DNA of 64,000 bases from an uncultured bacterium (GTDB lineage Bacteria > Abyssobacteria > SURF-5): the NCBI GenBank assembly GCA_964453435.1, contig CAYVQZ010000003.1, forward strand, positions 24,690 to 88,689, in the 5' to 3' direction. Below the pieces are notes generated by a model that did no database searches, was not told the DNA's origin, and saw only the letters and a program-made list of their open reading frames with translations. Shown here one piece after another: positions 41,057-63,638 of this stretch. Position 1 is the stretch's first letter; each line of letters begins with the position of its first letter. The position numbers and the translations under genes were made by a program.

Positions 41057-41102
41057 TTTGTTTGCTCGGTTTGTGAATCCTTTCAGATACTTGTTTCGGC
41101 TA

Positions 41103-44100: not shown

Positions 44101-44456
44101 TGGTCGGAGGTGTGGTTCACGACCAGTTCGGTGATGACACGCAGGCCGCGCCTGTGGGCCTCCCGCAAAAACGCCCTGAAGTCGCGTATTGTTCCATACG
44201 ATGGATGGATCCCCCGATAGTAGGATATGTCATAGCCGTCATCCTTCAAAGGCGACGGGCAGAACGGCAGCAGCCAGATTGCGCCGACACCCAGGTCGTG
44301 AAGGTAGTCAAGTTTTTCGATCAGCCCCTTGAAATCACCTATGCCGTCGCCGTCGCTGTCCCGAAACGCTTTGACATGCAGTTCATAAATCACGCTGTCT
44401 TTGTACCACAGGGGATCGTCTTCCAATGCCGTTAATTCGGCCTTTCGGTCGGCCAT
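41103..44456 (-). CDS. treS: Trehalose synthase fused to maltokinase (TreS-Pep2/Mak)
   Basis: The N-terminal GH13 TreS has [29 protein letters not shown] and [10 protein letters not shown]. The C-terminal ~450 aa are kinase-like and carry [25 protein letters not shown]. Total length is 1117 aa. Confidence 0.9.
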
Positions 44457-44471
44457 ATCAACTCCTGAGTT

Positions 44472-46529: not shown

Positions 46530-46641
46530 ACCTGCCGGTCGCTTCTAATGAAACGGTCCCCAGACAATCGCTCGCAACGCGGCAAAACGGGCAATCTTGG
46601 GACTCTTTCATAGCGCCTCCTGCGCACGCTTCAGAATCGGC

Positions 46642-49704: not shown

Positions 49705-49720
49705 TGGCGCCATCCGTGCA
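49705..49720 (+). promoter_or_regulatory. Candidate sigma-54 (-24/-12) promoter
   Basis: TGGCGC-CATCC-GTGCA matches consensus TGGCAC-N5-TTGCW with correct GG/GC spacing. It lies ~98 nt upstream of the ATG at 49818 and directly downstream of the sigma-54 activator gene. Confidence 0.65.
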
Positions 49721-49817: not shown

Positions 49818-50180
49818 ATGCCAAAGAAAATAATTCTTTTGCTCAAATCAGGAATAAAATTTGAAAACATGCTCAAGGATTACTTGAGCCAGGAGGGTTT
49901 TGAAGTTGATACCGCGGAAACCGTGGCCGAAGTCCTTTATTATCTCAAGAGGTCGCCTCATTTTCTCCTGGTCGTTGAGCAGGACACATACGAGATGGAC
50001 TGTCTGGAACTTTTTCTAAATGCTCGAGATATTCAATCGAACATCAAAGTTGTTTTCCTCGGTTCGGGTGATCCAAAAAGCAAAGACGAGATAATGAAGC
50101 TCGGAGGAATCTACCTCGATTCCCCCGTTCGGGCGGAAGTCTTCCGGGAAATCATAAACGACGTTCGTAAGGTCAAGTGA
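49818..50180 (+). CDS. Single-domain receiver-like protein with degenerate phospho-acceptor pocket
   Basis: 120 aa with CheY-like periodicity. KIILLLKSG replaces the DD pocket. FLLVVEQDTYEMDCLELFL aligns Glu with the phospho-acceptor Asp. The conserved Lys position reads LDSPV. Confidence 0.65.
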   Translation: MPKKIILLLKSGIKFENMLKDYLSQEGFEVDTAETVAEVLYYLKRSPHFLLVVEQDTYEMDCLELFLNARDIQSNIKVVFLGSGDPKSKDEIMKLGGIYLDSPVRAEVFREIINDVRKVK

Positions 50181-50280: not shown

Positions 50281-50967
50281 ATGACAGAAAACGGGCTAAT
50301 CAAGGAACTCCACGCAAACGTGGTCCTCGGCCGGATAGACCGGAATGAAGATTTGTATGAGGAATTAGCCGGACGCCCCGGCGTAACCGAGTTGACCGCC
50401 CAGTGTGTGGAAAAAGGCGTGCCCACGAAACGGATTCTGGACGAGGGCCTGATCAGCGCGATGGATGAAGTCGGCGCGAAGTATGAATCGGGAGAATATT
50501 ACCTGCCGGACTTGATCGCATCGGCCGACGCCATGATAGCCGGCATGGAGATTCTCAAGCCTCTGTTACTGGAGGCTCAAATCCAATCGCGCGGCAAAGT
50601 CATCCTGGCCACCGTGGAAGGCGATGAACATGATATTGGGAAAAATCTTGTGGGCATTATGCTTCGAGCCGCCGGTTTCGAAGTAATCGATTTGGGAACG
50701 CGAGTTCCGGCGGGAGACATTGTGGAAGCGGTGGAAGAACATAAACCGAACGTGCTCGGATTGAGCGCGCTTTTGACATCCACCATGCCGCGCATGAAAG
50801 AGGTCATCGAAGCGTTGGAACGAAACAATCTCCGGAACGGCATGCGGGTGATGGTGGGCGGAGCTCCCGTTTCAAAGGAGTACGCGGATTCCATCGGAGC
50901 AGATGCATATGGAGAGGATGCGTTTGAGGCAGTAGAGCGGGCCAATGAATTGGTGGTTGTATCATGA
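50281..50967 (+). CDS. Corrinoid (B12)-binding protein, methyltransferase-cognate type
   Basis: An N-terminal helical cap is followed by a Rossmann B12 domain with the DxHxxG motif (GDEHDIGKNLV), SxL (LGLSALLTS) and GG (MVGGAPV). Confidence 0.9.
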   Translation: MTENGLIKELHANVVLGRIDRNEDLYEELAGRPGVTELTAQCVEKGVPTKRILDEGLISAMDEVGAKYESGEYYLPDLIASADAMIAGMEILKPLLLEAQIQSRGKVILATVEGDEHDIGKNLVGIMLRAAGFEVIDLGTRVPAGDIVEAVEEHKPNVLGLSALLTSTMPRMKEVIEALERNNLRNGMRVMVGGAPVSKEYADSIGADAYGEDAFEAVERANELVVVS

Positions 50968-51599
50968 TACGAACAGATGCCGACAGTTCAGGACTTGTGG
51001 TTATCGATTCGTTTGACATTCGGACCACGCCGAAATCGGTGCTCAAGAGGATGGGCAGGGGGGTCAGCGAGACCAAATGGGCAGGCGCCGTTTCAAGAGT
51101 ATTTGAACAATATTGGCCGCGAATTCAACCGCGCGGCGTGTTTCGCGTTACCATCTGCCATCCTGACGGAGATTCAATCGGCATCGGCAAAAACCTGGGC
51201 TTCAGAAGCGGATTTTTGCAGGAACGCCTCCCCTATCCGCGACTTTCGGCGATTTTTCTGGTAACCATCGGGGCTGAGTTGGAAGAAGGAATACGCGAGG
51301 AGATGCGAAAGGGCAGGAATCGCAGAGCATACATCTTGGACTGTCTCGGCTCCAACGCGGCCGAAGCGACCGCCGCGGCCATTCATCGAGCGGTCGAGGA
51401 ACAGCTTGACGTTCCAATGAGCCGATACAGCCCCGGCTATAACGATTGGGACATTGCCGAGCAACGAATTCTCTTTGATTTTCTTGGGCGGGACACGGCG
51501 AAGGAAGTGGGAGTTCGCTTGACGCACGATTTCATGATGACGCCGCAGAAGTCAGTCAGCGGCATTATCCTGCCCAGAATGGAACAAAACCCGAATTGA
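50964..51599 (+). CDS. MetH-type (vitamin B12-dependent methionine synthase) activation-domain-like protein, stand-alone
   Basis: The C-terminal block RYSPGYNDWDIAEQRILFDFLG...GVRLTHDFMMTPQKSVSGIILP matches the reactivation-domain signature as I recall it. The start overlaps the upstream stop (ATGA). Confidence 0.7.
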   Translation: MIRTDADSSGLVVIDSFDIRTTPKSVLKRMGRGVSETKWAGAVSRVFEQYWPRIQPRGVFRVTICHPDGDSIGIGKNLGFRSGFLQERLPYPRLSAIFLVTIGAELEEGIREEMRKGRNRRAYILDCLGSNAAEATAAAIHRAVEEQLDVPMSRYSPGYNDWDIAEQRILFDFLGRDTAKEVGVRLTHDFMMTPQKSVSGIILPRMEQNPN

Positions 51600-51687: not shown

Positions 51688-53184
51688 TTGGAACGAGCGA
51701 TTTCGAGACAGAGGTTTTTGGTAGCTGCGAGAAAAGGAATTGCAGGAGGAGCCTACAAGCCTCTGAGCGATTCCGACCTCGATAAGGTCTGCGACACCAG
51801 TTTCAGGCTCTTGGAGGAGGTCGGCGCTCTGGTGCACGAGCCCACGGCGCTCGACCTTTTCGAAAAGGCCGGGGCCAGGGTGGACCGCGCGTCCGCTGTC
51901 GTCAAGATTCCGCGCCAACTGGTGAAATCTTCCCTCAAAAGTTTACCCTCGAAGGTGACACTGTTCGGGCGAGATGAATCACACGACCTTCACCTCGAGG
52001 ATGCGCGCGTGTATGTGGGAACCGGCGGGACCGCGCTCAACGTTCTCGATTTCGGAGCCCATGAAGTTCGGCCGGCGCAACTGAGCGACCTCCGGTCCAT
52101 CTGCAAATTGGTTGACGCGCTCGACCACGTCCATTTCATCGTGATTCCCACCTATCCCAACGAGTTGGACGTCGCTTGCGTTGACGTCAATCGTTTTTTC
52201 ACGGCGTTGAGTCAAAGCTCCAAACACGTAATGGGCGGTATTTATACGCTTGAGGGTCTGCGCCAGGTCATACGCCTCGCGGAAATAATAGCCGGCGGTC
52301 CGGACGCGTTGCGAGAAAGACCGTTCATATCGGTGATCACATGTGTTATGAGTCCGCTGCGGCTTGACAGCCATTACGCGCATTTGATGATCGAGACAGC
52401 CAAGGCGGGAATACCCGTCTGTGTGCCCGCCGAGCCGCTGGCGGGCGCAACCTCGCCGATTACTCTGGCCGGCACTCTGGCGATGCAAGTTGCCGACAGC
52501 TTGGTCGGCGTCGTGTTGACACAGATAGTCAATCCGGGCACCCCGGTGATTTTCGGGTCGGTTGCCACAACGACCGACCTGCGGGACATGAAATACCTTG
52601 GGGCCTCCATCGAGAGCGGACTCTTAAACGCGGCGGGAGCCCAGGTGGCCCAGCATCTTCGGATTCCCTATTATGCGACCGCCGGAATGAGCGACGCGAA
52701 GACCATTGACGCTCAGTGCGGATACGAGGCCGCTCTCACGTTGCTGCTCACTGCGCTCTCGGGAGCCAACTACATCCACGACGCGGCCGGACTCATGGAG
52801 TTTGCGAACACGGTGAGCCTCGAGAAATACGTTATCGACGACGACATCATCGGCATGGTGATGCGGGCCGTCGAGGGGATTCGAGTGAACAAAGACACGC
52901 TGGCCTTCGACGCCATTCGAAGGGTTGGACCCGGCGGCAATTTCCTCGCGGAGCGGCACACGGCGAAACACATGAGGAAAGAGCACTACATGCCGACAGT
53001 CGCCGATCGCTCCCGGCGCGACCAGTGGCTCGCCGCAGGCACGAAAGACGCATACGCGCGAGCACACGAGAGGGCGATGCTGTTGCTCGAGTCCCACACG
53101 CCCGCGGCTCTGTCGAACGATGCCCTCTCGCGAATACGGGCAGAGTTTTCGGAAGTCCTTGCGGACGGCAACGAGGAGAGCTGA
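51688..53184 (+). CDS. MttB-family (trimethylamine methyltransferase superfamily) corrinoid methyltransferase, non-pyrrolysine, paralogue 1
   Basis: TTG start, 498 aa. The N-terminal block is LSDSDLDKVCDTSFRLLEEVGALVHEPTALDLFEKAGARVD. It also has GTGGTALNVLD and the C-terminal GPGGNFLAERHT. There is no in-frame stop. Confidence 0.85.
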   Translation: MERAISRQRFLVAARKGIAGGAYKPLSDSDLDKVCDTSFRLLEEVGALVHEPTALDLFEKAGARVDRASAVVKIPRQLVKSSLKSLPSKVTLFGRDESHDLHLEDARVYVGTGGTALNVLDFGAHEVRPAQLSDLRSICKLVDALDHVHFIVIPTYPNELDVACVDVNRFFTALSQSSKHVMGGIYTLEGLRQVIRLAEIIAGGPDALRERPFISVITCVMSPLRLDSHYAHLMIETAKAGIPVCVPAEPLAGATSPITLAGTLAMQVADSLVGVVLTQIVNPGTPVIFGSVATTTDLRDMKYLGASIESGLLNAAGAQVAQHLRIPYYATAGMSDAKTIDAQCGYEAALTLLLTALSGANYIHDAAGLMEFANTVSLEKYVIDDDIIGMVMRAVEGIRVNKDTLAFDAIRRVGPGGNFLAERHTAKHMRKEHYMPTVADRSRRDQWLAAGTKDAYARAHERAMLLLESHTPAALSNDALSRIRAEFSEVLADGNEES

Positions 53185-53994
53185 GTGATTGTTATAGGAG
53201 AGAAAATCAACGCCACGCGAAAATCCGTGAAGCACGCGTTGAAAGAGAAGAATCTGGATTTCATACGACAGCTCTGCGGCGAACAGGATTCGGCCGGAGC
53301 GGACTATATCGATGTGAACGTCGGCGCCGGCGAAGACGACGTCGACTTCGAGACAAGAACAATGGTGTGGCTTGTGAAGGCGCTCGAAGAGGTAACAGAA
53401 AAACCTCTTTGCATCGACAGCGCAAATCCGGCCGTGATCGAGGCTGGCGTGAAGGCCTGCACGCGGGCAAAGCCCATGATTAATTCAGTGAACGGAACAG
53501 ATTCGAGAATGGACGCCATCTTCCCGCTTGCCTCCGAGTGCGGATGCCCCGTCATTGCGCTCGCCATGAACGAGGAGGGAATACCGGCCACACCCGAAGA
53601 ACGCGTCTCCATTTGCAGGCAAATTCTGGAACGCGCCAGTTCGTATGAGATTCCGAACGAAAACCTCTTATTCGACCCGCTCGTGCTGCCACTGTCCACG
53701 GGAGAACAACAAGGAACGATAACTCTCGACACGATTTCCCTTCTGAAAAGCTCACTGGACGGAGTGCGAACCGTGGTGGGCCTGAGCAACATATCGTTCG
53801 GGCTGCCTCACCGCTCGCTCATCAACGGAGCGTTCCTCGTATTGGCGATCGGGCGTGGGGCCGACGCGGCGATTTTCGACCCCACGAACGCGAAACTGCT
53901 CTCGCAACTGCGGGCCGCAGAGGTGGTAGCGGGCAGTGACCGCAGATGCCGGCGCTACACCCGCGCTCACAACACCGGCCAATTGACTGATTAA
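53185..53994 (+). CDS. Pterin-binding methyltransferase (methylcorrinoid:tetrahydrofolate methyltransferase, MtgA/AcsE/MetH pterin-domain-like)
   Basis: The GTG start immediately follows the upstream TGA. Motifs are IGEKINATRKSV, DYIDVNVG, CIDSANP, INSVNG and GLSNISFGLP. Confidence 0.85.
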   Translation: MIVIGEKINATRKSVKHALKEKNLDFIRQLCGEQDSAGADYIDVNVGAGEDDVDFETRTMVWLVKALEEVTEKPLCIDSANPAVIEAGVKACTRAKPMINSVNGTDSRMDAIFPLASECGCPVIALAMNEEGIPATPEERVSICRQILERASSYEIPNENLLFDPLVLPLSTGEQQGTITLDTISLLKSSLDGVRTVVGLSNISFGLPHRSLINGAFLVLAIGRGADAAIFDPTNAKLLSQLRAAEVVAGSDRRCRRYTRAHNTGQLTD

Positions 53995-54002
53995 GGAGAA
54001 CC

Positions 54003-55535
54003 ATGAGAGGTGTTATGTCCCGAAAAATGAAGACAGAGACGATTCAAAGGCAGGGAGTTCTCGTTGACCCGTACAGACGATTGACGAGTCGACAAATCAG
54101 GGCCATACATGAGGCTTCCCTCGATATCCTTTGGGAAGTCGGAATAACGTGCAACAACCCGAGGATTATCGAGTTGTTGGCCGCGAACGGAGCGGCGATT
54201 GACAGAAAGAACGGCGAAACGGTGGCGAAGCTTCCCGCAAAGCTCGTCGCGCAAGCCGTGGAAAGTTCTCCCCGCGCCGTCGTGCTCGGCGCGCGCAACC
54301 CCGATAATCGTTTGATTCTTGATGCGCGGGAACCACGAGTGAGATTTGGCACAGGCTCGGAGACGAATATATGGCTGAGCCTGGAATGGGAGAACAACAC
54401 TATCCCCGGCTTCCGCGAGCATCGGGGAACTCTCGAGCGACTCTGCAAGTCCGCCCGTTTGTGCGACCACTTGGAGTCGGTCGATTTTTTCATCCGGAAC
54501 GTGAACATTCAAGACGAGAACATAGACGATGATAACAAGGATGTCAACGTCTTCTTTGGCAGCCTCAGCAATATAACCAAGCATGTAATGGCAGGTATTA
54601 ATAATGTGGAAAAACTGGCGGACGTGGTTCGAATGGCCGAACTCATAACAGGCGGCGCCGATGCTTTTCGGGCCAACCCGATTATTTCTTTCATCACCTG
54701 CGTCATCAAGAGTCCGTTGCAGTTGGTCGATGACACGGCGGACAAGTTGGTGGCGATAGCCGAGCGGGGCATACCGCTTGTTATCTCTTCGTCTCCCCAG
54801 GGCGGCGCAACGGGGCCGATTGACGAGGGGGACATGGTCGCGATGATTAACGCCGAAATCCTTGCCGGCGTCCTCCTTGCCCAGCTTGTCCGGCCGGCGG
54901 CGCCGGTGCTGTATGGCGCTGTGCCCGCGCGAGCGCGAATGGACACCCTGCACAACATGTATGGAGCGCCCGAGACGAACCAGTACAACATTGACTGCGT
55001 TCAGATGGCGCGATTCTACGATATTCCGTGCTATTCGACCGCCGGGGTGAGCGACGCCGCGATACCGGGCATTCAAACGACGATGGAGAAGATGTTGTCC
55101 CATCTGAGCGTAACGATGAGCGGACCCCAGTACCTGCACTATGCCTTCGGCCTGCTCGACAAAACCAACATCTTCTGTCCGGCGCAGGCAGTGCTCGACG
55201 ACGCGCACATCGCAGCGGTCAAGCATTTCTGCCGCAAGCCGGAAATAACCAAAACAAGCCTGAACAAAGGCGTCGCTCAGCTCAAACAGGTGATGGATTC
55301 CTCTCACAAACTTTTCGCGAGATACGCCCGGAAGGGAATGCGGTCAGGCGCTATCTCCCGACCCTACCCGTTCGAAGCCGCCGCGCTCGAGGACACGACA
55401 CTGTTCCAGGCCGATTCCGTCGCGCGCGAACTGATGGAAAAGACCGTGGAACCGATTCCCGACGATGTCGTGGAGAGAATCTTCGCGGCGCTCCCGGGAA
55501 TCGTGTCCCAACTGAAGCCGGCGCTGAGAGAATGA
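54003..55535 (+). CDS. MttB-family corrinoid methyltransferase, non-pyrrolysine, paralogue 2
   Basis: AAGGAG RBS, 510 aa. It is collinear with paralogue 1 (IRAIHEASLDILWEVGITCNNPRIIELLAANGAAID; STAGVSDA) but only ~30% identical by eye. Confidence 0.85.
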   Translation: MRGVMSRKMKTETIQRQGVLVDPYRRLTSRQIRAIHEASLDILWEVGITCNNPRIIELLAANGAAIDRKNGETVAKLPAKLVAQAVESSPRAVVLGARNPDNRLILDAREPRVRFGTGSETNIWLSLEWENNTIPGFREHRGTLERLCKSARLCDHLESVDFFIRNVNIQDENIDDDNKDVNVFFGSLSNITKHVMAGINNVEKLADVVRMAELITGGADAFRANPIISFITCVIKSPLQLVDDTADKLVAIAERGIPLVISSSPQGGATGPIDEGDMVAMINAEILAGVLLAQLVRPAAPVLYGAVPARARMDTLHNMYGAPETNQYNIDCVQMARFYDIPCYSTAGVSDAAIPGIQTTMEKMLSHLSVTMSGPQYLHYAFGLLDKTNIFCPAQAVLDDAHIAAVKHFCRKPEITKTSLNKGVAQLKQVMDSSHKLFARYARKGMRSGAISRPYPFEAAALEDTTLFQADSVARELMEKTVEPIPDDVVERIFAALPGIVSQLKPALRE

Positions 55536-56803
55536 GTGGTGATTCCATGGATTCCGGTTCCGCATACACCGAAGCCGTCAACACGGGTCAGTACCAGAAA
55601 GACCAGGGCCTGGTTAAAAAGTACGACAACGTCCGCATCTACTGGGAAGATGAAATAACGCGACATTTTGTTCGCCCGCACATCGAGCGGATGACGATGG
55701 AAAAAGAGCAGCGCCTCGAGCGGTTGCGGATTCTCGATTTGGGATGCGGCAGCGGTGACGGGTTCGAGTTGCTCAAAGGCGTTCGCCGGAAAGACAACAA
55801 TCTCACGACACAGGAGATCTACGCCATCAACGGCGAAGACCTCGGCCTCTATCTCGGGTTGGACAACAATGCGGCCCTTATTGAACAGGCAAAACAGGTC
55901 CACGGGAGTAATCGCAAGCTCGACTTCGTTCAGGGCGACTTCTCAGAACTCACGAAAACCGTGAAGGATTACGGACCCTTCGACCTTTTCTTCAGCTCGT
56001 ACGGAACGATGTCTCATTGCACTGATGAACAGTTTGTCGAGCTAATGGTACAGATCGCCGAACTGTGCGGAGACTATGGGCTGGTCGTGTGCGATTGGCT
56101 CGGGCGCTACGTGTACGCGTGGCAGAACCTGTGGGACAGCGACCTTTCGCAAAGCCAATTCATGGATTACCGTATTTCCTATATCTACCCGGATGACATG
56201 AGGGACAAACTGCAAATAGAGAGTTTCCCGCTCAAGCTCATGAGCCCCGATGAGGTCCACCGGCTTATCGAGAAGGCAAACGAGAAAGCGGAAAAGCAAT
56301 TCGACCTGCTCAGGCTTGCGGACCGCTCCATCTTTGTCAGTCGCCATATGGACACCGGCGACTATAACAGTAGCTGCCAGCCGATACGGCGCCGCGTTAA
56401 TTCGCTGCATGAAGACTTTCTCCGCACGCCGCTCGAACAATTGATTATCGACTATTATCCAAAGCCCGGATTCGCCGAGGTCAACTCCTACCTCGAACGG
56501 CTTCAAATAAGCTGGAACACGCTGGTGAAATACACGATGTTTCTTTTGGACAATTACGACCGCGACACCGAGACGTTTCGAGAGGACAAACCCCTTTCCG
56601 GCGATTACCCCCGGGTGCTCGCGAAAAATATGCAGGAAATGAAAAAGGTAATCCAGGGCACCGGATGGATACAGACCGGCGACGTGAGGGCGAACATCAT
56701 CGAGCCGCAGCTTGGCTATGCTCTCAGGCAGCTCGAGATCGAGTTGCAGGAAGGACTGGGTGTGGGCCATGGCCTGGTTGCGATACTGGAAGTCCACAAG
56801 TAA
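55532..56803 (+). CDS. Large class I SAM-dependent methyltransferase-like protein (423 aa), function unknown
   Basis: The ATG at 55532 overlaps the MttB-2 stop (ATGA). Motif I is LRILDLGCGSGDGFELL, post-I is LGLDNN, motif II is DFVQGDF, and motif III is FDLFFSSYGTMSHC. The ~200 aa C-terminal region is not recognised. The track ORF start at 55028 lies inside MttB-2 and is rejected. Confidence 0.75.
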   Translation: MSGDSMDSGSAYTEAVNTGQYQKDQGLVKKYDNVRIYWEDEITRHFVRPHIERMTMEKEQRLERLRILDLGCGSGDGFELLKGVRRKDNNLTTQEIYAINGEDLGLYLGLDNNAALIEQAKQVHGSNRKLDFVQGDFSELTKTVKDYGPFDLFFSSYGTMSHCTDEQFVELMVQIAELCGDYGLVVCDWLGRYVYAWQNLWDSDLSQSQFMDYRISYIYPDDMRDKLQIESFPLKLMSPDEVHRLIEKANEKAEKQFDLLRLADRSIFVSRHMDTGDYNSSCQPIRRRVNSLHEDFLRTPLEQLIIDYYPKPGFAEVNSYLERLQISWNTLVKYTMFLLDNYDRDTETFREDKPLSGDYPRVLAKNMQEMKKVIQGTGWIQTGDVRANIIEPQLGYALRQLEIELQEGLGVGHGLVAILEVHK

Positions 56804-56818
56804 CCCCTTTTTCCATTC

Positions 56819-57985
56819 ATGATAGAACTGAAAGACGTTTCAAAGGTCTATCCTGACAATCAGCCCGCCGTAAAGAACTTCTCTCTCACCGTGGCAGACG
56901 GAGAGACCGTCGTTCTCATCGGCTCGAGCGGATGCGGGAAGACAACGACACTGAAAATGATCAACAGGCTCATCGAGCCCACCTCCGGCGAGATATATAT
57001 CAACGCAGAAAACATACTCAAGCTGAGCCCCGTTGCCCTGCGTCGCGACATCGGTTACGTCATCCAGCAGATCGGACTGTTCCCGCACATGACAATCAGA
57101 GAAAACGTCGAAATCGTGCCATCCCTTCTGGGCTGGCCGGAAGACCGCCGCCGCAGCCGCTCCCACGAGTTGATGAGCCTTGTGGGCCTGGCGCCCGACG
57201 TGTACTCCGACCGCTTCCCCCATGAGTTAAGTGGCGGACAGCAGCAACGGGTGGGGGTCGCCAGGGCGCTTGCGGCCGACCCGCCGACTCTCCTGATGGA
57301 CGAGCCGTTCGGCGCGCTGGACCCGATCACCCGGCGCGACATCCAGGAGGAATTTCAAACTCTGAAACGGGAAATCAAAAAGACAATCGTCTTTGTCACT
57401 CACGACATTATTGAAGCGGTGACTCTCGGAGACCGAATCGCGGTCATGAATAAGGGGAAATTGATTCAGTTGGGGTCCGCACACGAAATACTGTCTCATC
57501 CCGCCAATCCGATGGTCGAAAAAATCATCGGCCACCAGCGGTTTCAGCTCACCTTGAGCTCGGAGAACATCGAGACAGCGGCGGACACCGACATCGCGAC
57601 GGTCTCGGCAAAATTCCTTGAAAAACCGGTGGAAGACGCGCGTAATCTTATGAGAAAACGCCGGACCGGGATATTGCCCGTAGTTGACGAACAAGAACGG
57701 GTAGTCGGTGTGTTGACGGATGAACGCTTGTCGCGCGCGAATGAGAACGAAACCCTCAACGAGGTGATTCAGCCGCCTCCGCACACAATCGATAGCGACA
57801 CCAGCCTCCTTACGGCGCTCAATCTGATGATTGAAAAAGACGTGCAGATGTCCGTGCTGGTAAACAGGGATGGAAAGTTCGGGGGAATTCTGTCACGAAA
57901 GAGCCTGCTCGGAACAATCGCAAACTTATTCGATGCCGAGGGCTCGGACAGCGCCAAAACGAAGAGAGTTACGGGGAAACCATGA
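56819..57985 (+). CDS. Osmoprotectant (betaine/choline/carnitine-type) ABC transporter ATP-binding protein with C-terminal tandem CBS domains
   Basis: Walker A is GSSGCGKTT, signature is LSGGQQQRV, and Walker B is LLMDEPFGALD. The ~130 aa C-terminal CBS-like region has ILPVVDEQERVVGVLTDE and VLVNRDGKFGGILSR. Confidence 0.9.
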   Translation: MIELKDVSKVYPDNQPAVKNFSLTVADGETVVLIGSSGCGKTTTLKMINRLIEPTSGEIYINAENILKLSPVALRRDIGYVIQQIGLFPHMTIRENVEIVPSLLGWPEDRRRSRSHELMSLVGLAPDVYSDRFPHELSGGQQQRVGVARALAADPPTLLMDEPFGALDPITRRDIQEEFQTLKREIKKTIVFVTHDIIEAVTLGDRIAVMNKGKLIQLGSAHEILSHPANPMVEKIIGHQRFQLTLSSENIETAADTDIATVSAKFLEKPVEDARNLMRKRRTGILPVVDEQERVVGVLTDERLSRANENETLNEVIQPPPHTIDSDTSLLTALNLMIEKDVQMSVLVNRDGKFGGILSRKSLLGTIANLFDAEGSDSAKTKRVTGKP

Positions 57986-59523
57986 CCGAGTATTTCGAGT
58001 TTTTTCTATCCCGTTCGCCGGAAATCGCCTGGCTCACGGTCGAGCACATACGGATAACCCTGGTCTCGGTGGCGCTGGCGGTGCTGCTCGGCGTGCCGAC
58101 CGGAATCATCCTCGTGAGAATCCGGCGGCTGGCCACGCCTGTCATTGGGGCGACGAGCGTAATCCAGACGATTCCGAGCCTCGCCCTTCTCGGTTTCATG
58201 ATTCCCTTGCTCGGAATCGGCGTCAAACCGGCCATCGTGGCGCTGTTTCTTTACGCTCTGCTGCCAATAGTCAGAAACACATATACGGGGGTCGACCAGG
58301 TGGACCCGGCGCTGATAGAGGCCGGCATCGGGATGGGAATGACGAACCGTCAAATGCTGCGGAGGGTGCAAATTCCGCTTTCATTGCCCGTGATAATGGC
58401 GGGAGTCAGAACCTCGACAGTCATCAATGTGGGCGTAGCCACGCTGTGCGCGCTCATCGGCGCCGGCGGGCTTGGCGAGCTTATCTTCCGCGGAATCGCG
58501 ATGGTGAACAGCCAGATGATTATTGCGGGAGCCCTGCCGGCCGCCCTCTTGGCGCTCGTTTTCGACGGAGTACTCGGACTCATCGAGAAAGGGCTCATGG
58601 CGAGGAAACGCTTTTCGCCGAAGCTCCTGGCGGGTGTCGGTTTCTCGAGCTTGCTCTTCCTCGCGGCTCTTATCCCGTCCGAGTACGCGAAAAAAGATGC
58701 GCGGAAAATCACAATCGGGTCCAAGGAATTCACCGAACAAATTATCCTGGGTGAGATCATGGCCCAGTTGATTGAATCAAACACCGACGTGTCCGTGACC
58801 AGAAAGTTCGGACTGGGCGGCACTATGGTCTGTTTCAACGCCTTGACAAATGGCGACATCGACGTGTATCCCGAATACACCGGCACCGGCTTGACGGCGA
58901 TCCTGGCCCGGCAGGCAATCTCGGACCCGAAAGAGGTGTTTCGTATCGTAAGCGAGGAGTTCGAGCGCGAATACAACCTGGTCTGGCTGAGTCCGTTCGG
59001 TTTTAACAACACGTATGCGCTCGCCATGAGAGAACAACACGCCGAAAAGCTCGGAATCGAGAAAATAAGCGATTTGGCCGGGCATGGGCAAAGACTGCGG
59101 CCGGGCTTCACCCAGGAATTCCTCGAACGGCCCGACGGGTATCCGGGCCTCAGGCGGCATTACGGTCTGGCCTTCGCCCGCGAACCCAAGGGAATGGACC
59201 CCGGAATCATGTATATCGCGCTCAGGGAAAGAGATGTCGATCTTATTTGTGCATTCGCCACGGACGGGCGCATTCCGGCTTTCAACTTGCGGGTTCTCGA
59301 GGATGACAAGCACTATTTTCCTCCGTATTATGCAGCCCCCCTCGTGCGCGGGGAGACGCTTGCTCGCATCCCCGAACTGAGCGGCGTTTTGGGCAAGCTG
59401 GCCGGCCTCATCGACGACGCAAAGATGGCCGAACTGAATTATGAGGTGGACGAGCAGGGACGGTCGCCCGAGGCGGTCGCTTCCGCCTTTCTCCAAGAGG
59501 CGGGGTTGACCACAAACGGATGA
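57982..59523 (+). CDS. Osmoprotectant ABC transporter, fused permease and substrate-binding protein (OpuB/C/F-type)
   Basis: The N-terminal ~210 aa permease has IQTIPSLALLGFMIPLLGIG and EAGIGMGMT. The C-terminal OpuAC-like binding domain has ITIGSKEFTEQIILGEI and DIDVYPEYTGTGL. The start overlaps the ATPase stop (ATGA). Confidence 0.9.
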   Translation: MTEYFEFFLSRSPEIAWLTVEHIRITLVSVALAVLLGVPTGIILVRIRRLATPVIGATSVIQTIPSLALLGFMIPLLGIGVKPAIVALFLYALLPIVRNTYTGVDQVDPALIEAGIGMGMTNRQMLRRVQIPLSLPVIMAGVRTSTVINVGVATLCALIGAGGLGELIFRGIAMVNSQMIIAGALPAALLALVFDGVLGLIEKGLMARKRFSPKLLAGVGFSSLLFLAALIPSEYAKKDARKITIGSKEFTEQIILGEIMAQLIESNTDVSVTRKFGLGGTMVCFNALTNGDIDVYPEYTGTGLTAILARQAISDPKEVFRIVSEEFEREYNLVWLSPFGFNNTYALAMREQHAEKLGIEKISDLAGHGQRLRPGFTQEFLERPDGYPGLRRHYGLAFAREPKGMDPGIMYIALRERDVDLICAFATDGRIPAFNLRVLEDDKHYFPPYYAAPLVRGETLARIPELSGVLGKLAGLIDDAKMAELNYEVDEQGRSPEAVASAFLQEAGLTTNG

Positions 59524-59554
59524 ACGGTGAACGTACTTTGCAGACGGAAAGGAG

Positions 59555-61051
59555 TTGCAGATGAGCGGCATCATAGCGATATATGGTCCCGACGCGGAGA
59601 ACGAGAAGGAACTCGCCGAAGAAATGCTTTCGAGAATAAGGCATCGCGGGCCGAGTTTCGCCAATATCTTTTCTGACACCGGCGTAATCCTGGGTTTTGT
59701 GGGAAAAGGAACGCCTTCGGAATCCTCCGGTTTGCCGTATCGGGACAAGAACGGCTCTCAGGCGGTTACATGTGACGCCGAGATATACAATGCCGACACG
59801 CTTCTGTCGGCCTCGCAAACGGATGCGTCCTTCGAAGCCAACAGCGCACGGGCAATCGTGAATGCGTATAAGCAGGACGGCGAAACCTTTGTGAGGAATC
59901 TCGACGGCCAGTTCAGTTTCGTCCTTTTCGACAACGGCGACCTTGTCGCGGCGCGGGACCCTCTCGGTGTCATTCCCCTTTATACTGCTGAACGAGACGG
60001 ACTGAAATTATTCTCATCGGAACTGAAATGCCTGAGCGGGCTGGCATCGAACATACAAGAATTTCCCCCGGGAAGGCTATTCCATTCCCGGTCGGGTTTC
60101 CGCCGATATTGCAGCCTGGAGCCGGAAATCTCGGAGAATCAATCCGTTGATTCGCTGTGCGCACAATTGAGGGAGTTGCTCGAGGTTGCGGTTCGAAAGC
60201 GGCTGGAGTGCTGCGACAAGAAAAAAGGAGTGTTCTTGAGCGGAGGGGTGGACAGCAGCGTTATCGCGGCGGTGGTGAGCAAGTTCCTGCCGGGAGTCGA
60301 TTCCTTCACCGTCGGCATGGAGAACGGCGAAGATGTTCCGAATGCCCGACTCGTGGCAAAGCATTTGGGGACGAATTCCCATGTACATATTTTTGAGATC
60401 GCTGAGGTTCTCGAAGTCCTTCCGAAGGTACTATATCACCTCGAATCGTTCGACGCGCCGCTGGTGCGCAGCGCGACCGCAAACTACATAGCGAGTGGTA
60501 TGGCGTCACAGGTTGTCGACACGATATTAATCGGGGAAGGCGGAGATGAGAACTTCGGAGGGTACCATCATGTGAAAAGGTTCAAATCGCCCGAAGAACA
60601 GCAGAAAGAGTTCATAAACCTTATGTTGGCTCTTCACAACATGGGCTTCATGAGAACCGACCGAATGAACTGGGCGCATTCCTTAAATGTGAGAGCACCG
60701 TTTTTCGACTCGGCGGTCGTGAACCTGGCCATGAGCATTCATCCCAAGCTGAAACTGTACGGTGATGAACAAATCGAGAAATGGATTTTGCGGAAAGCGT
60801 TCGAAGACTATCTTCCCGAGGAGGTCGTCTGGCGTCCCAAGAAGCAGTTTGCGCGCGGCTCCGGCTCCGATGACCTTCTCACGCGACATGCGGAAAGCGA
60901 AATCAGCGATTCGGACTTCGACAATGGCAAAAGACGTTACCCCGACATCGAGTTCCGCTGGAAAGAGGAATGGTGGTACTTCACGATTTTCAGGGAGCGC
61001 TTCGGCGACGACCCCTCAACGCTGTCCACGGTGGGCCGCTGGTACGAGTAG
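59555..61051 (+). CDS. Asparagine-synthetase-B-like protein lacking the N-terminal Cys nucleophile (Ser2)
   Basis: A strong RBS (AAAGGAG) lies 6 nt before the ATG. The N-terminus is MSGIIAIYG instead of MCG. The PP-loop VFLSGGVDSSVIAAV is intact. Length is 498 aa. Confidence 0.85.
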   Translation: MQMSGIIAIYGPDAENEKELAEEMLSRIRHRGPSFANIFSDTGVILGFVGKGTPSESSGLPYRDKNGSQAVTCDAEIYNADTLLSASQTDASFEANSARAIVNAYKQDGETFVRNLDGQFSFVLFDNGDLVAARDPLGVIPLYTAERDGLKLFSSELKCLSGLASNIQEFPPGRLFHSRSGFRRYCSLEPEISENQSVDSLCAQLRELLEVAVRKRLECCDKKKGVFLSGGVDSSVIAAVVSKFLPGVDSFTVGMENGEDVPNARLVAKHLGTNSHVHIFEIAEVLEVLPKVLYHLESFDAPLVRSATANYIASGMASQVVDTILIGEGGDENFGGYHHVKRFKSPEEQQKEFINLMLALHNMGFMRTDRMNWAHSLNVRAPFFDSAVVNLAMSIHPKLKLYGDEQIEKWILRKAFEDYLPEEVVWRPKKQFARGSGSDDLLTRHAESEISDSDFDNGKRRYPDIEFRWKEEWWYFTIFRERFGDDPSTLSTVGRWYE

Positions 61052-61204
61052 CATGTGGCCGGTGGGCGCAGCATGAGTGGCAACGAGAGTGTTCAAATCG
61101 TCGCGACAAGAATTCATCATAATCACGAATCATAAATACGGCAGGCCGCGCCGACAGTTGACGGAGGGGCCCGCAGTTCGCCGATTGGAAAGGAGCATCG
61201 AACA

Positions 61205-62686
61205 GTGTGTGGAATAGCAGGAGTATGGGGCGAAGAGAATCCTTATCTTGTCCGGAAAATGTTGTCGAAGCTCACGCACCGGGGCCCGGACGATGAGGGA
61301 ATACATTGCGACCACAACATCACGCTCGGGCACACCCGGTTGTCGATTATCGATGTTCAGAGGGGACGCCAGCCCTTGTTCAACGAAGACAAGAGTATCG
61401 TTCTGGTCTGCAACGGCGAGATATACAATCACAATGCCCTCCGCAACGAATTGGCGCACCACACGTTTCAAACGCGCAGCGACTCCGAAGTGATACTCCA
61501 CCTGTACGAGGACCTGGGTCCCGCGTGCGTTGAAAAACTGGACGGCATGTTCAGTTTCGTGCTCTGCGACGGCGCCGACATGATGGTTGCGCGCGATCCT
61601 CTCGGCATCAAGCCGCTCTACTACAGCGAGCATCTCGGCCGGTGGTATTTCGCTTCGGAAATCAAGGCTGTGATGGGGCTTGTCGAGGATATTGCGGAAT
61701 TCCCGAACGGTCACTATTACTATTCTCCTTCCGGTTTCCACAGGTACTATTCATTGCCGCGCCACCCACCGAAAATCGCCGATGTCGATGAGGCCGTTGT
61801 CGGCGTGAGAAAACTGTTTGAGAAGGCGGTCGTCAAGCGACTCATGGCGGATGTTCCGCTGGGAGTCTTGCTGAGCGGCGGATTAGACAGCAGCCTGGTG
61901 AGCGCCGTCGCCTCGAAACACAAGAAGAATATGAATTCTTTCAGCGTAGGCGTTGAAGGAAGCGCCGACATCGAGGCCGCCCGGCTCATGGCCGACTTTC
62001 TGGATGTCAACCATCATGAATATGTCTACACGATAGACGAGATGCTCGATATCCTGCCGACCGTCATCTATTATCTCGAATCGTACGACGCGCCGCTGGT
62101 GCGAAGCGCGATACCCACGTATTTCGTGTCGAGACTCGCGCGTCGGTATGTGAAGGTCATTCTCAGCGGCGAGGGCTCGGACGAACTGTTCAGCGGATAC
62201 CACTATTACAAGAAGTGTCCGGAAGATTTGCTTCATGACGAACTCGTGCGGAGCGTTGACGGTTTGCACAATATCAATCTGCAGCGCCTGGACCGCCTGT
62301 CCATGGCTCACTCGCTAGAAGCGCGCGTGCCGTTTCTCGACATCGACTTCGTGGAATATGCGTTGCAGCTCAGCGCTTCCTTGAAGATCGACCGGCAAAC
62401 CGGTACCGAGAAATGGATTCTGAGAAAAGCCTTCGAGGGGGTGCTTCCCGATGAGATCGTGTGGAGAGTGAAGACACAATTCGCGAAGGGCTGCGGCTCC
62501 GCCGGGCTGATTGAAAATCATGTGGAAAACCTTATTTCTGACAGGGAATACCGGGAAACGCTCGAGATGGACCCGCATTGCCGCGCGCGTTCCAAGGAAG
62601 AGTTGTTCTACTACCGAATGTTCAAGGAACACTTCGGCAACGAAAGTGTGGTAAAATCGGTCGGCCGTTGGGAAGAGATTTATTAG
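61205..62686 (+). CDS. Asparagine synthetase B-like glutamine amidotransferase (canonical Cys nucleophile)
   Basis: GTG start followed by CGIAGVWG. The PP-loop is VLLSGGLDSSLVSAV. It is a collinear paralogue of 59555..61051. Confidence 0.85.
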   Translation: MCGIAGVWGEENPYLVRKMLSKLTHRGPDDEGIHCDHNITLGHTRLSIIDVQRGRQPLFNEDKSIVLVCNGEIYNHNALRNELAHHTFQTRSDSEVILHLYEDLGPACVEKLDGMFSFVLCDGADMMVARDPLGIKPLYYSEHLGRWYFASEIKAVMGLVEDIAEFPNGHYYYSPSGFHRYYSLPRHPPKIADVDEAVVGVRKLFEKAVVKRLMADVPLGVLLSGGLDSSLVSAVASKHKKNMNSFSVGVEGSADIEAARLMADFLDVNHHEYVYTIDEMLDILPTVIYYLESYDAPLVRSAIPTYFVSRLARRYVKVILSGEGSDELFSGYHYYKKCPEDLLHDELVRSVDGLHNINLQRLDRLSMAHSLEARVPFLDIDFVEYALQLSASLKIDRQTGTEKWILRKAFEGVLPDEIVWRVKTQFAKGCGSAGLIENHVENLISDREYRETLEMDPHCRARSKEELFYYRMFKEHFGNESVVKSVGRWEEIY

Positions 62687-62738: not shown

Positions 62739-63638
62739 GTGATTGAATCTCACATTATGGCTTACATCGTCATTGTATCCGCTGTCGGCGTCATCGTGAT
62801 TTGGTGGCTGCGCCGAACCATAACCATGGTCGAGGAGCAGCGGCGGAAGCGACTGCAAACGCTGAATCGCTTCGACGCAGCCGTGCACACGGAATCTCCG
62901 CATGAGAATCCCCTCATCCAGGCGCGCAAGCTGGCGCTCGAAAGCCTCAGCAGCCGCTTCAGTATTCTCAGGCGTTTGCTCATTCCGGCGGTCTTCCTGC
63001 TCTGGCTCGTCGCGCTCGCTTACCCCTTCCTCGGGAACGTGCCTGCAAACGTCGTGTCGCTCATGGTGGCGGCCGCCACGGTGATCGTCGGTATCGCCGC
63101 GAAACCCTATGTCGAGAATCTTATCTCCGGAATCGTCATATCGTTTTCGCGCCTTGTGCGCATCGGCGACACCCTGCTGATTGATGGCAATTATGGAACC
63201 GTCGAAGACATCACCATCACGCACACGCTCGTGAAGATATGGGACTGGAGACGGTACATCATTCCGAACTCGCGCATGCTCGAAAAAGAATTCATCAATT
63301 ACTCCATCGTCGACACATACCAGTGGGCGTACGTCGAGTTCTGGGTGGATCATGACGCGGACATCGAGCGGGTCCGGGAGATTGCCGTACGGGCCGCGTC
63401 CTCGAGCGACCATTTCGCAAATTATGAGGCTCCCCGGTTCTGGCTCATGGAGATGGGCAAAGAGGGAATAAAGTGCTGGGTGGCGGCATGGGCGCAATCG
63501 CCCGCAGACGCCTGGCTGCTCAAAAACGAGATTCGCACCGAACTGGTTCGAGAATTGGCACAGGCCGGAATTCGGACCCATACCTATCGGATAGATGGCT
63601 TGGAGGCTTTGAAGGACACTATGGAACCGCGGAAGTGA
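62739..63638 (+). CDS. Mechanosensitive ion channel, small MscS family
   Basis: GIAAKPYVENLISGIVISFSRLVRIGDTLLIDGNYGTVEDITITHTLVKIWDWRRYIIPNS. Length is 299 aa with N-terminal TM segments. Confidence 0.9.
   Translation: MIESHIMAYIVIVSAVGVIVIWWLRRTITMVEEQRRKRLQTLNRFDAAVHTESPHENPLIQARKLALESLSSRFSILRRLLIPAVFLLWLVALAYPFLGNVPANVVSLMVAAATVIVGIAAKPYVENLISGIVISFSRLVRIGDTLLIDGNYGTVEDITITHTLVKIWDWRRYIIPNSRMLEKEFINYSIVDTYQWAYVEFWVDHDADIERVREIAVRAASSSDHFANYEAPRFWLMEMGKEGIKCWVAAWAQSPADAWLLKNEIRTELVRELAQAGIRTHTYRIDGLEALKDTMEPRK

What the first reader, a model, noticed from the sequence alone, without database searches (positions are those of the whole stretch)
59555..62686. Tandem AsnB-like paralogues, one with the Ntn Cys replaced by Ser
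Seen in sequence: the upstream copy starts MSGIIAIYG after a strong RBS and has no alternative upstream start. The downstream copy starts (GTG)CGIAGVWG. Both keep the SGGxDS PP-loop and are collinear. Established knowledge: class II (Ntn) glutamine amidotransferases need Cys1 for glutamine hydrolysis. AsnB homologues lacking it, such as beta-lactam synthetase and carbapenam synthetase, do not use glutamine and catalyse ATP-dependent intramolecular or other amide bond formation. Inference: the pair may form a heteromer with one glutaminase-dead subunit, or the Ser copy may be an adenylating amide synthetase with a new substrate. Given the betaine transporter and MscS neighbours, an amide-type compatible solute is one speculative possibility.
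Basis: partly seen in the sequence, partly recalled or inferred. Interest (0 to 1): 0.55.

Follow-up and report, generated by a model that had tools for sequence, protein, structure and literature searches.

The report
Glutaminase-dead AsnB paralogue in betaine-methyltransferase operon
Two neighbouring asparagine-synthetase-like genes are real, and the one without the catalytic cysteine belongs to a large, unstudied lineage with a dead glutamine-splitting half and an intact ATP-using half that recurs across many bacterial phyla in operons for uptake and vitamin-B12-dependent demethylation of betaine-like compounds.

Summary
Copy A (59561-61051, MSGIIAIYG) and copy B (61205-62686, GTG-CGIAGVWG) are 42% identical AsnB homologues.

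Copy A has lost more than Cys1. Arg49, Asn74, Gly75, Asp98 and Glu398 (E. coli numbering) are also changed. The PP-loop and the synthetase residues E348, D351, E352, Y357, R387 and K449 are intact. The Ser is not an error: two independent assemblies are identical, and close orthologues carry Gly or Ala at that position.

All Cys-less homologues sampled group together in a neighbour-joining tree, and all carry Asn74→Asp.

Context is the main new result. A and B end a long operon with a likely sigma-54 promoter. It encodes a corrinoid protein, two atypical MttB-family methyltransferases that lack the carboxylate-binding Arg of characterised members, a methyl-corrinoid:THF methyltransferase, an uncharacterised SAM methyltransferase and an OpuA/OpuC-type ABC importer, followed by MscS. 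This architecture recurs in at least seven phyla.

Cys-less copies usually occur without a Cys-containing neighbour (adjacent in 4 of 39 loci). An obligate heteromer is therefore unlikely. Copy A is best read as an autonomous, glutamine-independent amide synthetase in an unknown N-methylated-amine (osmolyte-type) pathway. Its substrate is unresolved.

The parts
59561..61051 (+). Copy A: Cys-less AsnB homologue (496 aa). The Ntn-glutaminase-like N-domain is dead; the PP-loop synthetase C-domain is intact.
   Evidence: AF2 model pLDDT 93.6; TM 0.89-0.90 to E. coli AsnB 1CT9.
59564..59566 (+). AGC (Ser) codon at the position of the Ntn nucleophile Cys1.
   Evidence: Identical in two independent assemblies. 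The position is S, G, A or K in the clade.
60239..60256 (+). PP-loop SGGVDS of copy A (residues 227-232).
   Evidence: invariant S227 G228 G229 D231 S232.
61205..62686 (+). Copy B: canonical glutamine-hydrolysing AsnB-type enzyme (493 aa, GTG start, Cys1, R45, N70-G71-E72, D93).
   Evidence: NF006949 score 603 bits, above the 499-bit cut-off.
61874..61891 (+). PP-loop SGGLDS of copy B (residues 224-229).
57982..59523 (+). ABC permease fused to an OpuAC-type substrate-binding domain, immediately upstream of A.
   Evidence: The SBP domain is closest to the Thermoanaerobacter OpuBC-derived sensor scaffolds, then OpuCC, EgtUC and ProX.
56819..57985 (+). ABC ATPase with tandem CBS domains (OpuA/ProV type).
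   Evidence: TIGR01186, 380 bits.
55532..56803 (+). Uncharacterised class I SAM-methyltransferase-like protein (423 aa). It is the conserved neighbour of AsnB-like genes.
   Evidence: AF2 pLDDT 87; nearest folds are generic class I methyltransferases, including GSMT and GNMT.
54003..55535 (+). MttB-family methyltransferase, orthogroup 2. Residues S/Y/Y/T at MtgB positions Y97/R312/H348/F356.
53185..53994 (+). Pterin-binding methyl-corrinoid:THF methyltransferase.
   Evidence: NF005719, 303 bits.
51688..53184 (+). MttB-family methyltransferase, orthogroup 1. Residues G/Y/D/A at the MtgB glycine-betaine-binding positions; no in-frame UAG.
50964..51599 (+). Protein with a MetH-type activation domain (Met_synt_B12).
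50281..50967 (+). Corrinoid (B12-binding) protein.
49705..49720 (+). Sigma-54-type -24/-12 element, TGGCGC-N5-GTGCA, upstream of the operon.
   Evidence: Read from the sequence. The adjacent enhancer-binding protein is at 48133-49425.
62757..63638 (+). MscS-type mechanosensitive channel, directly downstream of B.

Best explanation
Copy B is an ordinary glutamine-hydrolysing AsnB-type amidotransferase.

Copy A belongs to an old and widespread sister lineage. Its N-terminal glutaminase site has been destroyed, while both domains and the complete ATP-pyrophosphatase (adenylating) site remain under purifying selection.

Proposed mechanism (inferred, not shown): A works on its own. It adenylates a carboxylate that sits near a cationic amino or ammonium group. 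Aspartate or an N-methylated relative is the most likely substrate. It then forms an amide with a nucleophile that does not come from glutamine. Free ammonia is the most likely nucleophile and an amine is possible. On this reading A does the same kind of step as B without glutamine.

Both genes are accessory enzymes of a conserved operon, apparently sigma-54-dependent. The operon imports a quaternary-amine-type solute through an OpuA/OpuC-like ABC system and moves N-methyl groups between that solute family and tetrahydrofolate. It does this through two atypical MttB-family methyltransferases, a corrinoid protein and a methyl-corrinoid:THF methyltransferase. An uncharacterised SAM methyltransferase is the closest partner of the AsnB-like enzyme.

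Shown: the anatomy, the residue pattern, the conservation, and the gene context. Inferred: the substrate, the nucleophile, and the direction of the pathway.
For: Dead glutaminase site, intact synthetase site:
- In A and in every Cys-less homologue examined, C1 and R49 are lost and N74 is always Asp. E398 is lost in the paired types.
- SGGxDS, E348, D351, E352, Y357, R387, K429 and K449 are all kept. Residue roles are taken from PMC6748925.
- The A model is confident (pLDDT 93.6) and closest to AsnB: TM 0.89-0.90, against 0.72-0.76 for beta-lactam synthetase and about 0.70 for carbapenam synthetase.

Selection:
- dN is 0.22-0.29 against orthologues while dS is saturated.
- The N-domain is still about 42% conserved within the clade.

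Lineage:
- All Cys-less sequences form one clade in an NJ tree.
- At least 63 of the top 147 cluster representatives (50% identity) start without Cys.

Context:
- Copy A's own clade lies next to OpuA-type ABC genes, and in all but one locus (L001) inside MttB/corrinoid/pterin/SAM-MT clusters, in Hydrogenedentota and Deltaproteobacteria.
- 27 of 80 genome loci from at least seven phyla carry an AsnB-like gene in the same cluster.
- In 80 metagenome loci of a sister Cys-less clade the dominant order is MttB1-Pterin-MttB2-CoP-MT-AsnB(Cys-less). The MT gene is immediately upstream in 28 of 53 loci. A Cys-containing copy is adjacent in only 4 of 39.
- Cyanobacteria pair the Cys-containing type with the same MT family, next to MscS, OpuAC or a tandem glutaminase.

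Other points:
- Wild-type ASNS supports ammonia-dependent synthesis in vitro (PMC6748925).
- An accessory ATP-using enzyme that derivatises the substrate of an MttB-family enzyme has a precedent in MthK/MthB (PMC12155760).
Against: - No biochemical data exist for any member of the Cys-less lineage.
- The substrate is unknown. B passes NCBI's AsnB equivalog cut-off, so it may simply make asparagine, and its presence in the operon could reflect nitrogen economy rather than a dedicated pathway.
- A SAM-dependent methyltransferase co-transcribed with demethylating MttB enzymes is not explained by a purely catabolic reading.
- ATP-dependent amidation (AMP + PPi) is expensive for a catabolic route in anaerobes.
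- The monophyly of the Cys-less group rests on one NJ tree with long branches.
- Genes encoded apart can still form a complex, so a heteromer is not excluded in this organism, where A and B are adjacent.
Confidence: 0.55

Rival explanations
1. Heteromer. A is a pseudo-glutaminase subunit that pairs with B (AsnB enzymes are dimers). It would supply a second synthetase site or a regulatory or scaffolding partner, with B supplying the ammonia.
For: - A and B are adjacent, on the same strand, with the same RBS sequence.
- All 18 loci that hold two AsnB-like genes combine one Cys-containing and one Cys-less copy.
- The N-domain of A is conserved and confidently folded.
- Human ASNS crystallises as a head-to-head dimer (PMC6748925).
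Against: - Pairing is the minority state. A Cys-containing copy is adjacent in 4 of 39 unbiased loci of the sister clade.
- In A's own clade there is none within 5-10 kb in L001, L004, L005 and L086.
- The ammonia tunnel of AsnB is intramolecular (PMC6748925), so B could not easily feed A.
- E398 at the domain interface is lost in A.
Confidence: 0.15
2. Plain isozyme. A is an ammonia-dependent asparagine synthetase (Asp + NH3 + ATP gives Asn). B is the glutamine-dependent form of the same housekeeping reaction, and their place in the operon has no pathway-specific meaning.
For: - The residues that bind the aspartyl-AMP intermediate (E348, D351, E352, K449) are conserved in A.
- A passes the TIGR01536 cut-off (287 bits against 267) and B passes NF006949.
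- ASNS can use ammonium.
Against: - The linkage of AsnB-like genes to the MT-like and MttB genes is conserved in at least seven phyla and in cyanobacteria. That is not expected for a housekeeping gene.
- All paired Cys-less types differ from the Cys-containing enzymes at synthetase-domain positions 226, 282, 328, 384 and 401. Position 384 (human Asp-400, part of the amino-group pocket) is always Gly or Ala.
Confidence: 0.2
3. Decaying duplicate. A is a non-functional relic of a tandem duplication of B.
For: A has lost the nucleophile and most glutamine-binding residues.
Against: - The ORF is full length with its own RBS.
- Orthologues at 46-70% identity in other phyla show the same residue pattern.
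- dN is far below the saturated dS.
- The synthetase motifs are invariant.
- A and B belong to anciently separated clades, so A is not a recent duplicate of B.
Confidence: 0.02
4. Beta-lactam-synthetase-like or lasso-cyclase-like enzyme that forms an intramolecular amide in a secondary metabolite.
For: Those enzymes are the known Cys-less AsnB homologues. They appear as weaker hits.
Against: - Scores are far below the family cut-offs: lasso cyclase 142 bits against 525, macrolactam cyclase 54 against 300.
- The fold is closer to AsnB.
- No precursor-peptide, PKS, NRPS or clavam-type genes are nearby. The neighbours are transport and C1-transfer genes.
Confidence: 0.03

Closest known systems
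Class II (Ntn) glutamine-dependent asparagine synthetase, E. coli AsnB / human ASNS (PDB 1CT9, 6GQ3)
   Same: - Same two-domain fold (TM 0.86-0.90 for A).
- Same PP-loop and synthetase catalytic residues in both A and B.
- B also has the full glutaminase site.
   Different: - A lacks Cys1, Arg49, Asn74, Gly75, Asp98 and the interface Glu398.
- Both A and B are about 60 residues shorter.
- They sit in a methyl-transfer and transport operon, not a housekeeping context.
Beta-lactam synthetase and carbapenam synthetase (PDB 1JGT, 1Q15)
   Same: AsnB homologues without the N-terminal Cys. They keep the adenylation chemistry and do not use glutamine.
   Different: - Much more distant from A: TM 0.70-0.76, 15-22% identity, 83 and 67 bits.
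- They belong to antibiotic gene clusters and form rings intramolecularly.
AsnO, the N-acetylglutaminylglutamine amide (NAGGN) amidotransferase (TIGR03104)
   Same: An AsnB homologue dedicated to making an amide-type osmolyte (established knowledge). This is a precedent for the osmolyte reading.
   Different: - AsnO keeps Cys1 and works with the Ngg ligase, and no Ngg homologue is present here.
- A and B score 144 and 275 bits against a 570-bit cut-off.
MthK/MthB choline pathway of Eubacterium limosum (PMC12155760)
   Same: An MttB-family gene cluster that carries an accessory ATP-using enzyme, which modifies the substrate before corrinoid-dependent demethylation.
   Different: - The accessory enzyme there is a kinase that makes an acidic substrate.
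- Here it is an amide synthetase, and the MttB proteins have lost the conserved carboxylate-binding Arg.
Dph5/Dph6 steps of diphthamide synthesis (recalled from memory, not tested)
   Same: SAM-dependent N-trimethylation is combined with ATP- and ammonia-dependent amidation, by a PP-loop enzyme, of the carboxylate next to the trimethylammonium group. This shows that a 'betaine amide' can be made by this enzyme logic.
   Different: - It acts on a protein side chain.
- Dph6 is not an AsnB homologue beyond the PP-loop superfamily.

Membership tests
Glutamine-hydrolysing asparagine synthetase (AsnB, class II GATase) | N-terminal Cys1 nucleophile exposed after Met removal | tested here: not met
   A: Ser (AGC 59564-59566), with no upstream Cys codon. 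B: met (TGT 61208-61210).
Glutamine-hydrolysing asparagine synthetase (AsnB, class II GATase) | Glutamine-binding and oxyanion residues Arg49, Asn74, Gly75, Glu76, Asp98 | tested here: not met
   A: G, D, A, E and a gap/Ser, so only Glu76 is kept. B: all five present. Residue roles from PMC6748925.
Glutamine-hydrolysing asparagine synthetase (AsnB, class II GATase) | PP-loop SGGxDS plus synthetase residues E348, D351, E352, K449 | tested here: met
   Present in both A and B.
Glutamine-hydrolysing asparagine synthetase (AsnB, class II GATase) | Curated HMM cut-offs (NF006949 at 499 bits; TIGR01536 at 267.1 bits) | tested here: inconclusive
   A: 416.7 bits (fails NF006949) but 287.1 bits (passes TIGR01536). 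B: 603 and 462 bits, passing both. Pipelines will therefore tend to name A 'glutamine-hydrolysing' although it lacks the nucleophile.
Glutamine-hydrolysing asparagine synthetase (AsnB, class II GATase) | Catalyses Asp + ATP + Gln/NH3 to Asn | not testable with these tools
   Needs an enzyme assay.
Beta-lactam / carbapenam synthetase | Closest sequence and structure relationship to BLS/CarA | tested here: not met
   TM 0.70-0.76 against 0.89-0.90 for AsnB. 83 and 67 bits against 234 bits for 1CT9.
Beta-lactam / carbapenam synthetase | Location in a clavam or carbapenem biosynthetic cluster | tested here: not met
   The neighbours are ABC transport, MttB, corrinoid, pterin MT, SAM MT and MscS genes.
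Lasso-peptide / macrolactam cyclases | NCBIfam NF033535 (525 bits) or NF033561 (300 bits) cut-off | tested here: not met
   A scores 142 and 54 bits.
NAGGN amidotransferase AsnO (TIGR03104) | HMM cut-off of 570 bits and an adjacent Ngg ligase | tested here: not met
   A scores 144 bits and B scores 275 bits. No Ngg-like gene lies in 46-64 kb of the window.
Cys-less AsnB-like lineage associated with MttB / SAM-MT loci (defined here) | No Cys1, Asn74 to Asp, loss of Arg49, Gly/Ala at position 384, intact PP-loop | tested here: met
   A shows all of these features, as do all 28 paired Cys-less sequences.
Cys-less AsnB-like lineage associated with MttB / SAM-MT loci (defined here) | Encoded beside MT-like, MttB, corrinoid or OpuA-type ABC genes | tested here: met
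   The window. Also L001, L002, L004, L005, L086 and L089, and the L092-L171 statistics.

The most novel reading that the evidence does not exclude
The operon handles a so-far undescribed carboxamide-type N-methylated solute, a 'betaine amide'. Examples would be an N-methylated asparagine or another amidated amino-acid betaine.

On this reading:
- The AsnB-like enzymes (Cys-less with ammonia, Cys-containing with glutamine) make the amide.
- The SAM methyltransferase N-methylates the solute.
- The OpuA-like importer and MscS manage the pool.
- The two MttB subfamilies, which have replaced the carboxylate-binding Arg312 by Tyr and His348 by Asp or Tyr, recognise the amide instead of a carboxylate.

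In the boldest version, the co-transcribed MttB/corrinoid/pterin enzymes run towards N-methylation with methyl-THF. That would be a cheap route to a betaine in anaerobes. Cyanobacteria would make the same compound with the SAM enzyme alone.
Probability: 0.15. Interest if true: 0.85.

Novelty: new variant of a known kind. Interest (0 to 1): 0.62.

Why it matters
Anaerobic use of quaternary amines (glycine betaine, choline, carnitine) by MttB-family enzymes is an active field with links to sediment methane and to gut TMA. All characterised non-pyrrolysine members take acidic substrates, held by a conserved Arg.

This locus defines two widespread MttB subfamilies without that Arg. They are always accompanied by an uncharacterised SAM methyltransferase and an AsnB-like amide synthetase that is often glutaminase-dead. 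That gives a concrete, testable entry point to an unknown substrate class and possibly an unknown osmolyte. Many of the MAG names point to hypersaline and marine sediment origins.

It also flags a large group of proteins that pipelines name 'asparagine synthase (glutamine-hydrolysing)' although they cannot hydrolyse glutamine.

Tried and rejected
- Literature: 'MttB' with 'asparagine synthetase', and 'asparagine synthase' with 'trimethylamine methyltransferase' and 'corrinoid', returned no papers. Searches for an AsnB plus methyltransferase osmolyte pathway, or for glutamate/glutamine/asparagine betaine genes, gave nothing usable. A search for described Cys-less AsnB paralogues gave nothing relevant.
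- dN/dS: synonymous sites are saturated, so only dN could be reported.
- SAM MT-like protein: no significant PDB sequence match. Foldseek gives only generic class I methyltransferases, so its substrate could not be assigned.
- RNA and signals: the Rfam scan of 46-64 kb found no riboswitch, only a sub-threshold PYLIS_3 hit inside MttB1. The terminator scan shows no convincing plus-strand terminator between the operon genes.
- Genome scan bias: the genome-contig scan seeded with the Cys-less clade returned mostly Cys-containing genes. Pairing frequencies from that set are therefore biased, and this was corrected with the metagenome scan.
- Identification of MttB1 as glycine betaine MtgB was rejected. 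All four betaine-binding residues differ.
- Ser as a new Ntn nucleophile was rejected for this clade, because orthologues carry Gly or Ala. Ser does predominate in the sister clade (68 of 71).
- Other Cys-less subgroups (Armatimonadota, Schnuerera-like, Syntrophomonadaceae) sit in unrelated contexts. The operon link therefore applies to the paired subtypes, not to every Cys-less homologue.
- A heteromer could not be tested, because no multimer prediction tool was available.
Full report
**Observation**

The two ORFs exist as described.
- Copy A runs from ATG 59561 to stop 61051 (496 aa, MSGIIAIYG). It follows GGAAAGGAG at 59546-59554.
- The frame opens after a TGA at 59528-59530. The only other start is TTG 59555, and no Cys codon precedes the ATG.
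- Copy B starts at GTG 61205, followed by TGT (Cys). It is 493 aa long and has the same RBS sequence at 61187-61195.
- The two proteins are 42% identical over their full length (E = 1e-127). Both contain the PP-loop: SGGVDS at A 227-232 and SGGLDS at B 224-229.
- The Ser codon is not an assembly error. Contigs from two other sequencing runs are identical over all 3126 bp from A to B.

**What copy A has lost and kept**

I aligned both copies to E. coli AsnB. Residue roles come from the human ASNS structure paper (PMC6748925).
- B has Cys1, Arg49, Asn74-Gly75-Glu76 and Asp98.
- A has Ser, Gly, Asp-Ala-Glu and a gap at those positions.
- A also replaces Glu398. This is human Glu-414, described as absolutely conserved and lying next to the glutamine pocket.
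- The GATase Pfam scores fall from 143/132 bits in B to 67/35 bits in A.
- The synthetase half of A is complete: the PP-loop, E348, D351, E352, Y357, R387, K429 and K449.
- An AlphaFold model of A is confident throughout (pLDDT 93.6, pTM 0.92).
- That model superposes best on E. coli AsnB (TM 0.89-0.90) and human ASNS (0.86). Beta-lactam synthetase (0.72-0.76), TsnB9 (0.75) and carbapenam synthetase (about 0.70) are clearly more distant.
- A fails the NF006949 AsnB cut-off (417 bits against 499) but passes TIGR01536 (287 against 267). Pipelines will therefore tend to call it glutamine-hydrolysing.

**A conserved lineage**

- The 12 closest homologues (46-70% identity) all lack Cys. Position 2 is S, G, A or K, so Ser is not required.
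- Across 114 aligned family members, every Cys-less sequence has lost Arg49 and carries Asp in place of Asn74.
- All four Cys-less subtypes found next to a Cys-containing copy (the 'paired' subtypes; copy A's clade is type 1) also differ from the Cys-containing enzymes at positions 226, 282, 328, 384 and 401.
- Position 384 is always Gly or Ala in those paired types. It corresponds to human Asp-400, part of the pocket for the substrate's amino group.
- In an NJ tree the Cys-less proteins form one clade with several subtypes. The Cys-containing partners fall into two other clades. This rests on one distance tree with long branches.
- dN between A and its orthologues is 0.22-0.29 with saturated dS. 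The N-domain is less conserved than the C-domain but is not decaying.
- A profile search of 1.84 billion representatives shows that copy A's own subtype is small, with two clusters at 50% identity. At least 63 of the top 147 representatives start without Cys.

**Context**

Upstream of A, on the same strand with short gaps or overlaps and no convincing terminator, the window encodes:
- a corrinoid protein;
- a MetH-type activation-domain protein;
- MttB paralogue 1;
- a pterin-binding methyl-corrinoid:THF methyltransferase;
- MttB paralogue 2;
- a 423-aa class I SAM-methyltransferase-like protein;
- an OpuA/ProV-type ATPase with CBS domains;
- a permease fused to an OpuAC-type binding domain.

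A and B follow, then MscS. A sigma-54 -24/-12 match (49705-49720) and an enhancer-binding protein lie upstream.

The same architecture carries orthologues of A in other Hydrogenedentota and in Deltaproteobacteria.

Among 80 species-representative genome loci, 27 hold an AsnB-like gene inside such a cluster. They come from Desulfobacterota, Chloroflexota, Planctomycetota, Lentisphaerota, Nitrospirota, Spirochaetota and Bacillota.

All 18 loci that hold two AsnB-like genes combine one Cys-containing and one Cys-less copy.

That sample was biased towards Cys-containing genes. I therefore scanned metagenomes with a sister Cys-less subtype:
- The dominant order is MttB1-Pterin-MttB2-CoP-MT-AsnB(Cys-less).
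- The MT-like gene is immediately upstream in 28 of 53 loci.
- An MttB gene is present in 29 of 44 loci of at least 8 kb.
- A Cys-containing copy is adjacent in only 4 of 39 loci with enough flank on both sides.

In A's own clade, four of seven loci have no Cys-containing copy within 5-10 kb.

In ten cyanobacterial loci (among them Rivularia, Crocosphaera, Cyanothece and Coleofasciculus) the Cys-containing type lies beside or near the same MT-like family, with no MttB gene. It is flanked there by MscS, an OpuAC binding protein or a tandem glutaminase.

The conserved core is therefore MT-like plus one AsnB-like enzyme of either kind. The tandem pair in this window is a minority arrangement.

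**The methyltransferases**

- MttB1 is only 32% identical to glycine betaine MtgB.
- At the four betaine-binding positions defined experimentally (Y97, R312, H348, F356; PMC13080624), orthogroup 1 has G/Y/D/(A, C or D) in 17 of its 18 members (L004 has G/F/H/L). Orthogroup 2 has S/Y/Y/T, or S/Y/C/N in five Dehalococcoidia loci. Arg312 is absent from all 38.
- That paper states that R312 is conserved in all characterised members, whose substrates are all acidic. These two subfamilies therefore probably bind something without a carboxylate at that site.
- The binding domain of the transporter is closest to the Thermoanaerobacter OpuBC-derived sensor scaffolds, then OpuCC, EgtUC and ProX.
- The MT-like protein has an intact SAM motif and a confident model. 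It has only generic class I neighbours, with GSMT and GNMT among them.

**Interpretation**

- B is a normal glutamine-dependent AsnB-type enzyme.
- A cannot hydrolyse glutamine but keeps everything needed to adenylate a carboxylate. Its lineage usually occurs alone next to the MT-like gene.
- The most economical reading is that A is an autonomous, glutamine-independent amide synthetase. It would do the same kind of step as the Cys-containing enzyme, with free ammonia (plentiful in anoxic sediments) or an amine as nucleophile.
- The acidic cluster that binds the amino group of aspartate is retained. The neighbouring position 384 is reduced to Gly or Ala. This is compatible with aspartate or a bulkier N-methylated analogue, but it is inference.
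- An ATP-using accessory enzyme in an MttB cluster has a precedent in MthK (PMC12155760).
- Substrate, nucleophile and pathway direction are not determined.
- A purely catabolic model does not explain the co-transcribed SAM methyltransferase.
- A purely biosynthetic model requires MttB enzymes to run in an unprecedented direction.

**Rivals**

- An obligate A·B heteromer is disfavoured by the co-occurrence data and by the intramolecular ammonia tunnel. It is not excluded here.
- A plain ammonia-dependent asparagine synthetase isozyme remains possible.
- A decaying duplicate and a beta-lactam-synthetase-like or lasso-cyclase-like role are contradicted by conservation, family scores, fold and context.

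**Novelty**

No paper in the searchable library links AsnB-like genes with MttB systems. This is a new variant of the AsnB superfamily in a new and widely conserved context. It is a well-supported lead with an unresolved chemistry.

Noticed in passing
window 49705-49720; 48133-49425; 49819-50180: A good sigma-54 -24/-12 match (TGGCGC-N5-GTGCA) lies upstream of the operon. It follows a sigma-54 enhancer-binding response regulator and precedes a small receiver-like ORF. The whole 13-kb operon may be sigma-54 controlled.
   Followed up: partly
window 51688-53184 and 54003-55535: The two MttB paralogues define orthogroups conserved at about 50% identity across phyla. Both lack all four glycine-betaine-binding residues of MtgB, including Arg312, which is reported as conserved in every characterised non-Pyl member. 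Their substrate is probably non-acidic.
   Followed up: yes
window 52687-52786: A sub-threshold Rfam PYLIS_3 hit (33.9 bits against 38) lies inside MttB1, although the ORF has no in-frame UAG. It probably reflects coding-sequence homology to Pyl-containing mttB.
   Followed up: partly
window 55532-56803: A 423-aa SAM-methyltransferase-like protein belongs to a large unannotated family, with more than 1700 homologues at E<=1e-10. It includes one cultured host, Desulfoferrobacter suflitae. It is tightly linked to AsnB-like genes in anaerobes and cyanobacteria.
   Followed up: partly
L010 4383-6347, L020 11566-13683, and L008, L014, L028, L029: In Crocosphaera, Cyanothece and Coleofasciculus a 650-705-aa protein with two glutaminase (PF04960) domains sits between the AsnB and MT-like genes.
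   Followed up: no
L047, L061, L065, L068, L070, L074, L076, L078, L080: A variant of the cluster in Dehalococcoidia and Desulfobacterales lacks the MT-like gene. Instead it carries a 282-aa MBL-fold (Lactamase_B_2) protein just downstream of the AsnB gene(s). It often also carries a further MttB type (G/F/H/L at the MtgB positions), and sometimes a DAO-family oxidase or a CN-hydrolase.
   Followed up: partly
window 39128-47700 (minus strand): GlgB-like, TreS-maltokinase fusion and GlgE genes (the trehalose-to-alpha-glucan route), plus a second MscS-type channel, lie just upstream of the regulator. This is another osmotic-stress-flavoured neighbourhood.
   Followed up: no
window 59561-61051: Copy A passes the curated TIGR01536 'asparagine synthase (glutamine-hydrolyzing)' cut-off despite lacking the nucleophile. 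JGI names its Cys-less relatives that way. This looks like systematic mis-annotation of the lineage.
   Followed up: partly
L012, L022, L054, L078 and others (record titles): Isolate labels of several loci (CSSed, B1Sed10, T3Sed10, GSL.Bin20, SMTZ) look like soda-lake, salt-lake or marine-sediment sample codes, which would suggest a salinity-linked distribution. The origins were recalled from memory and not checked.
   Followed up: no
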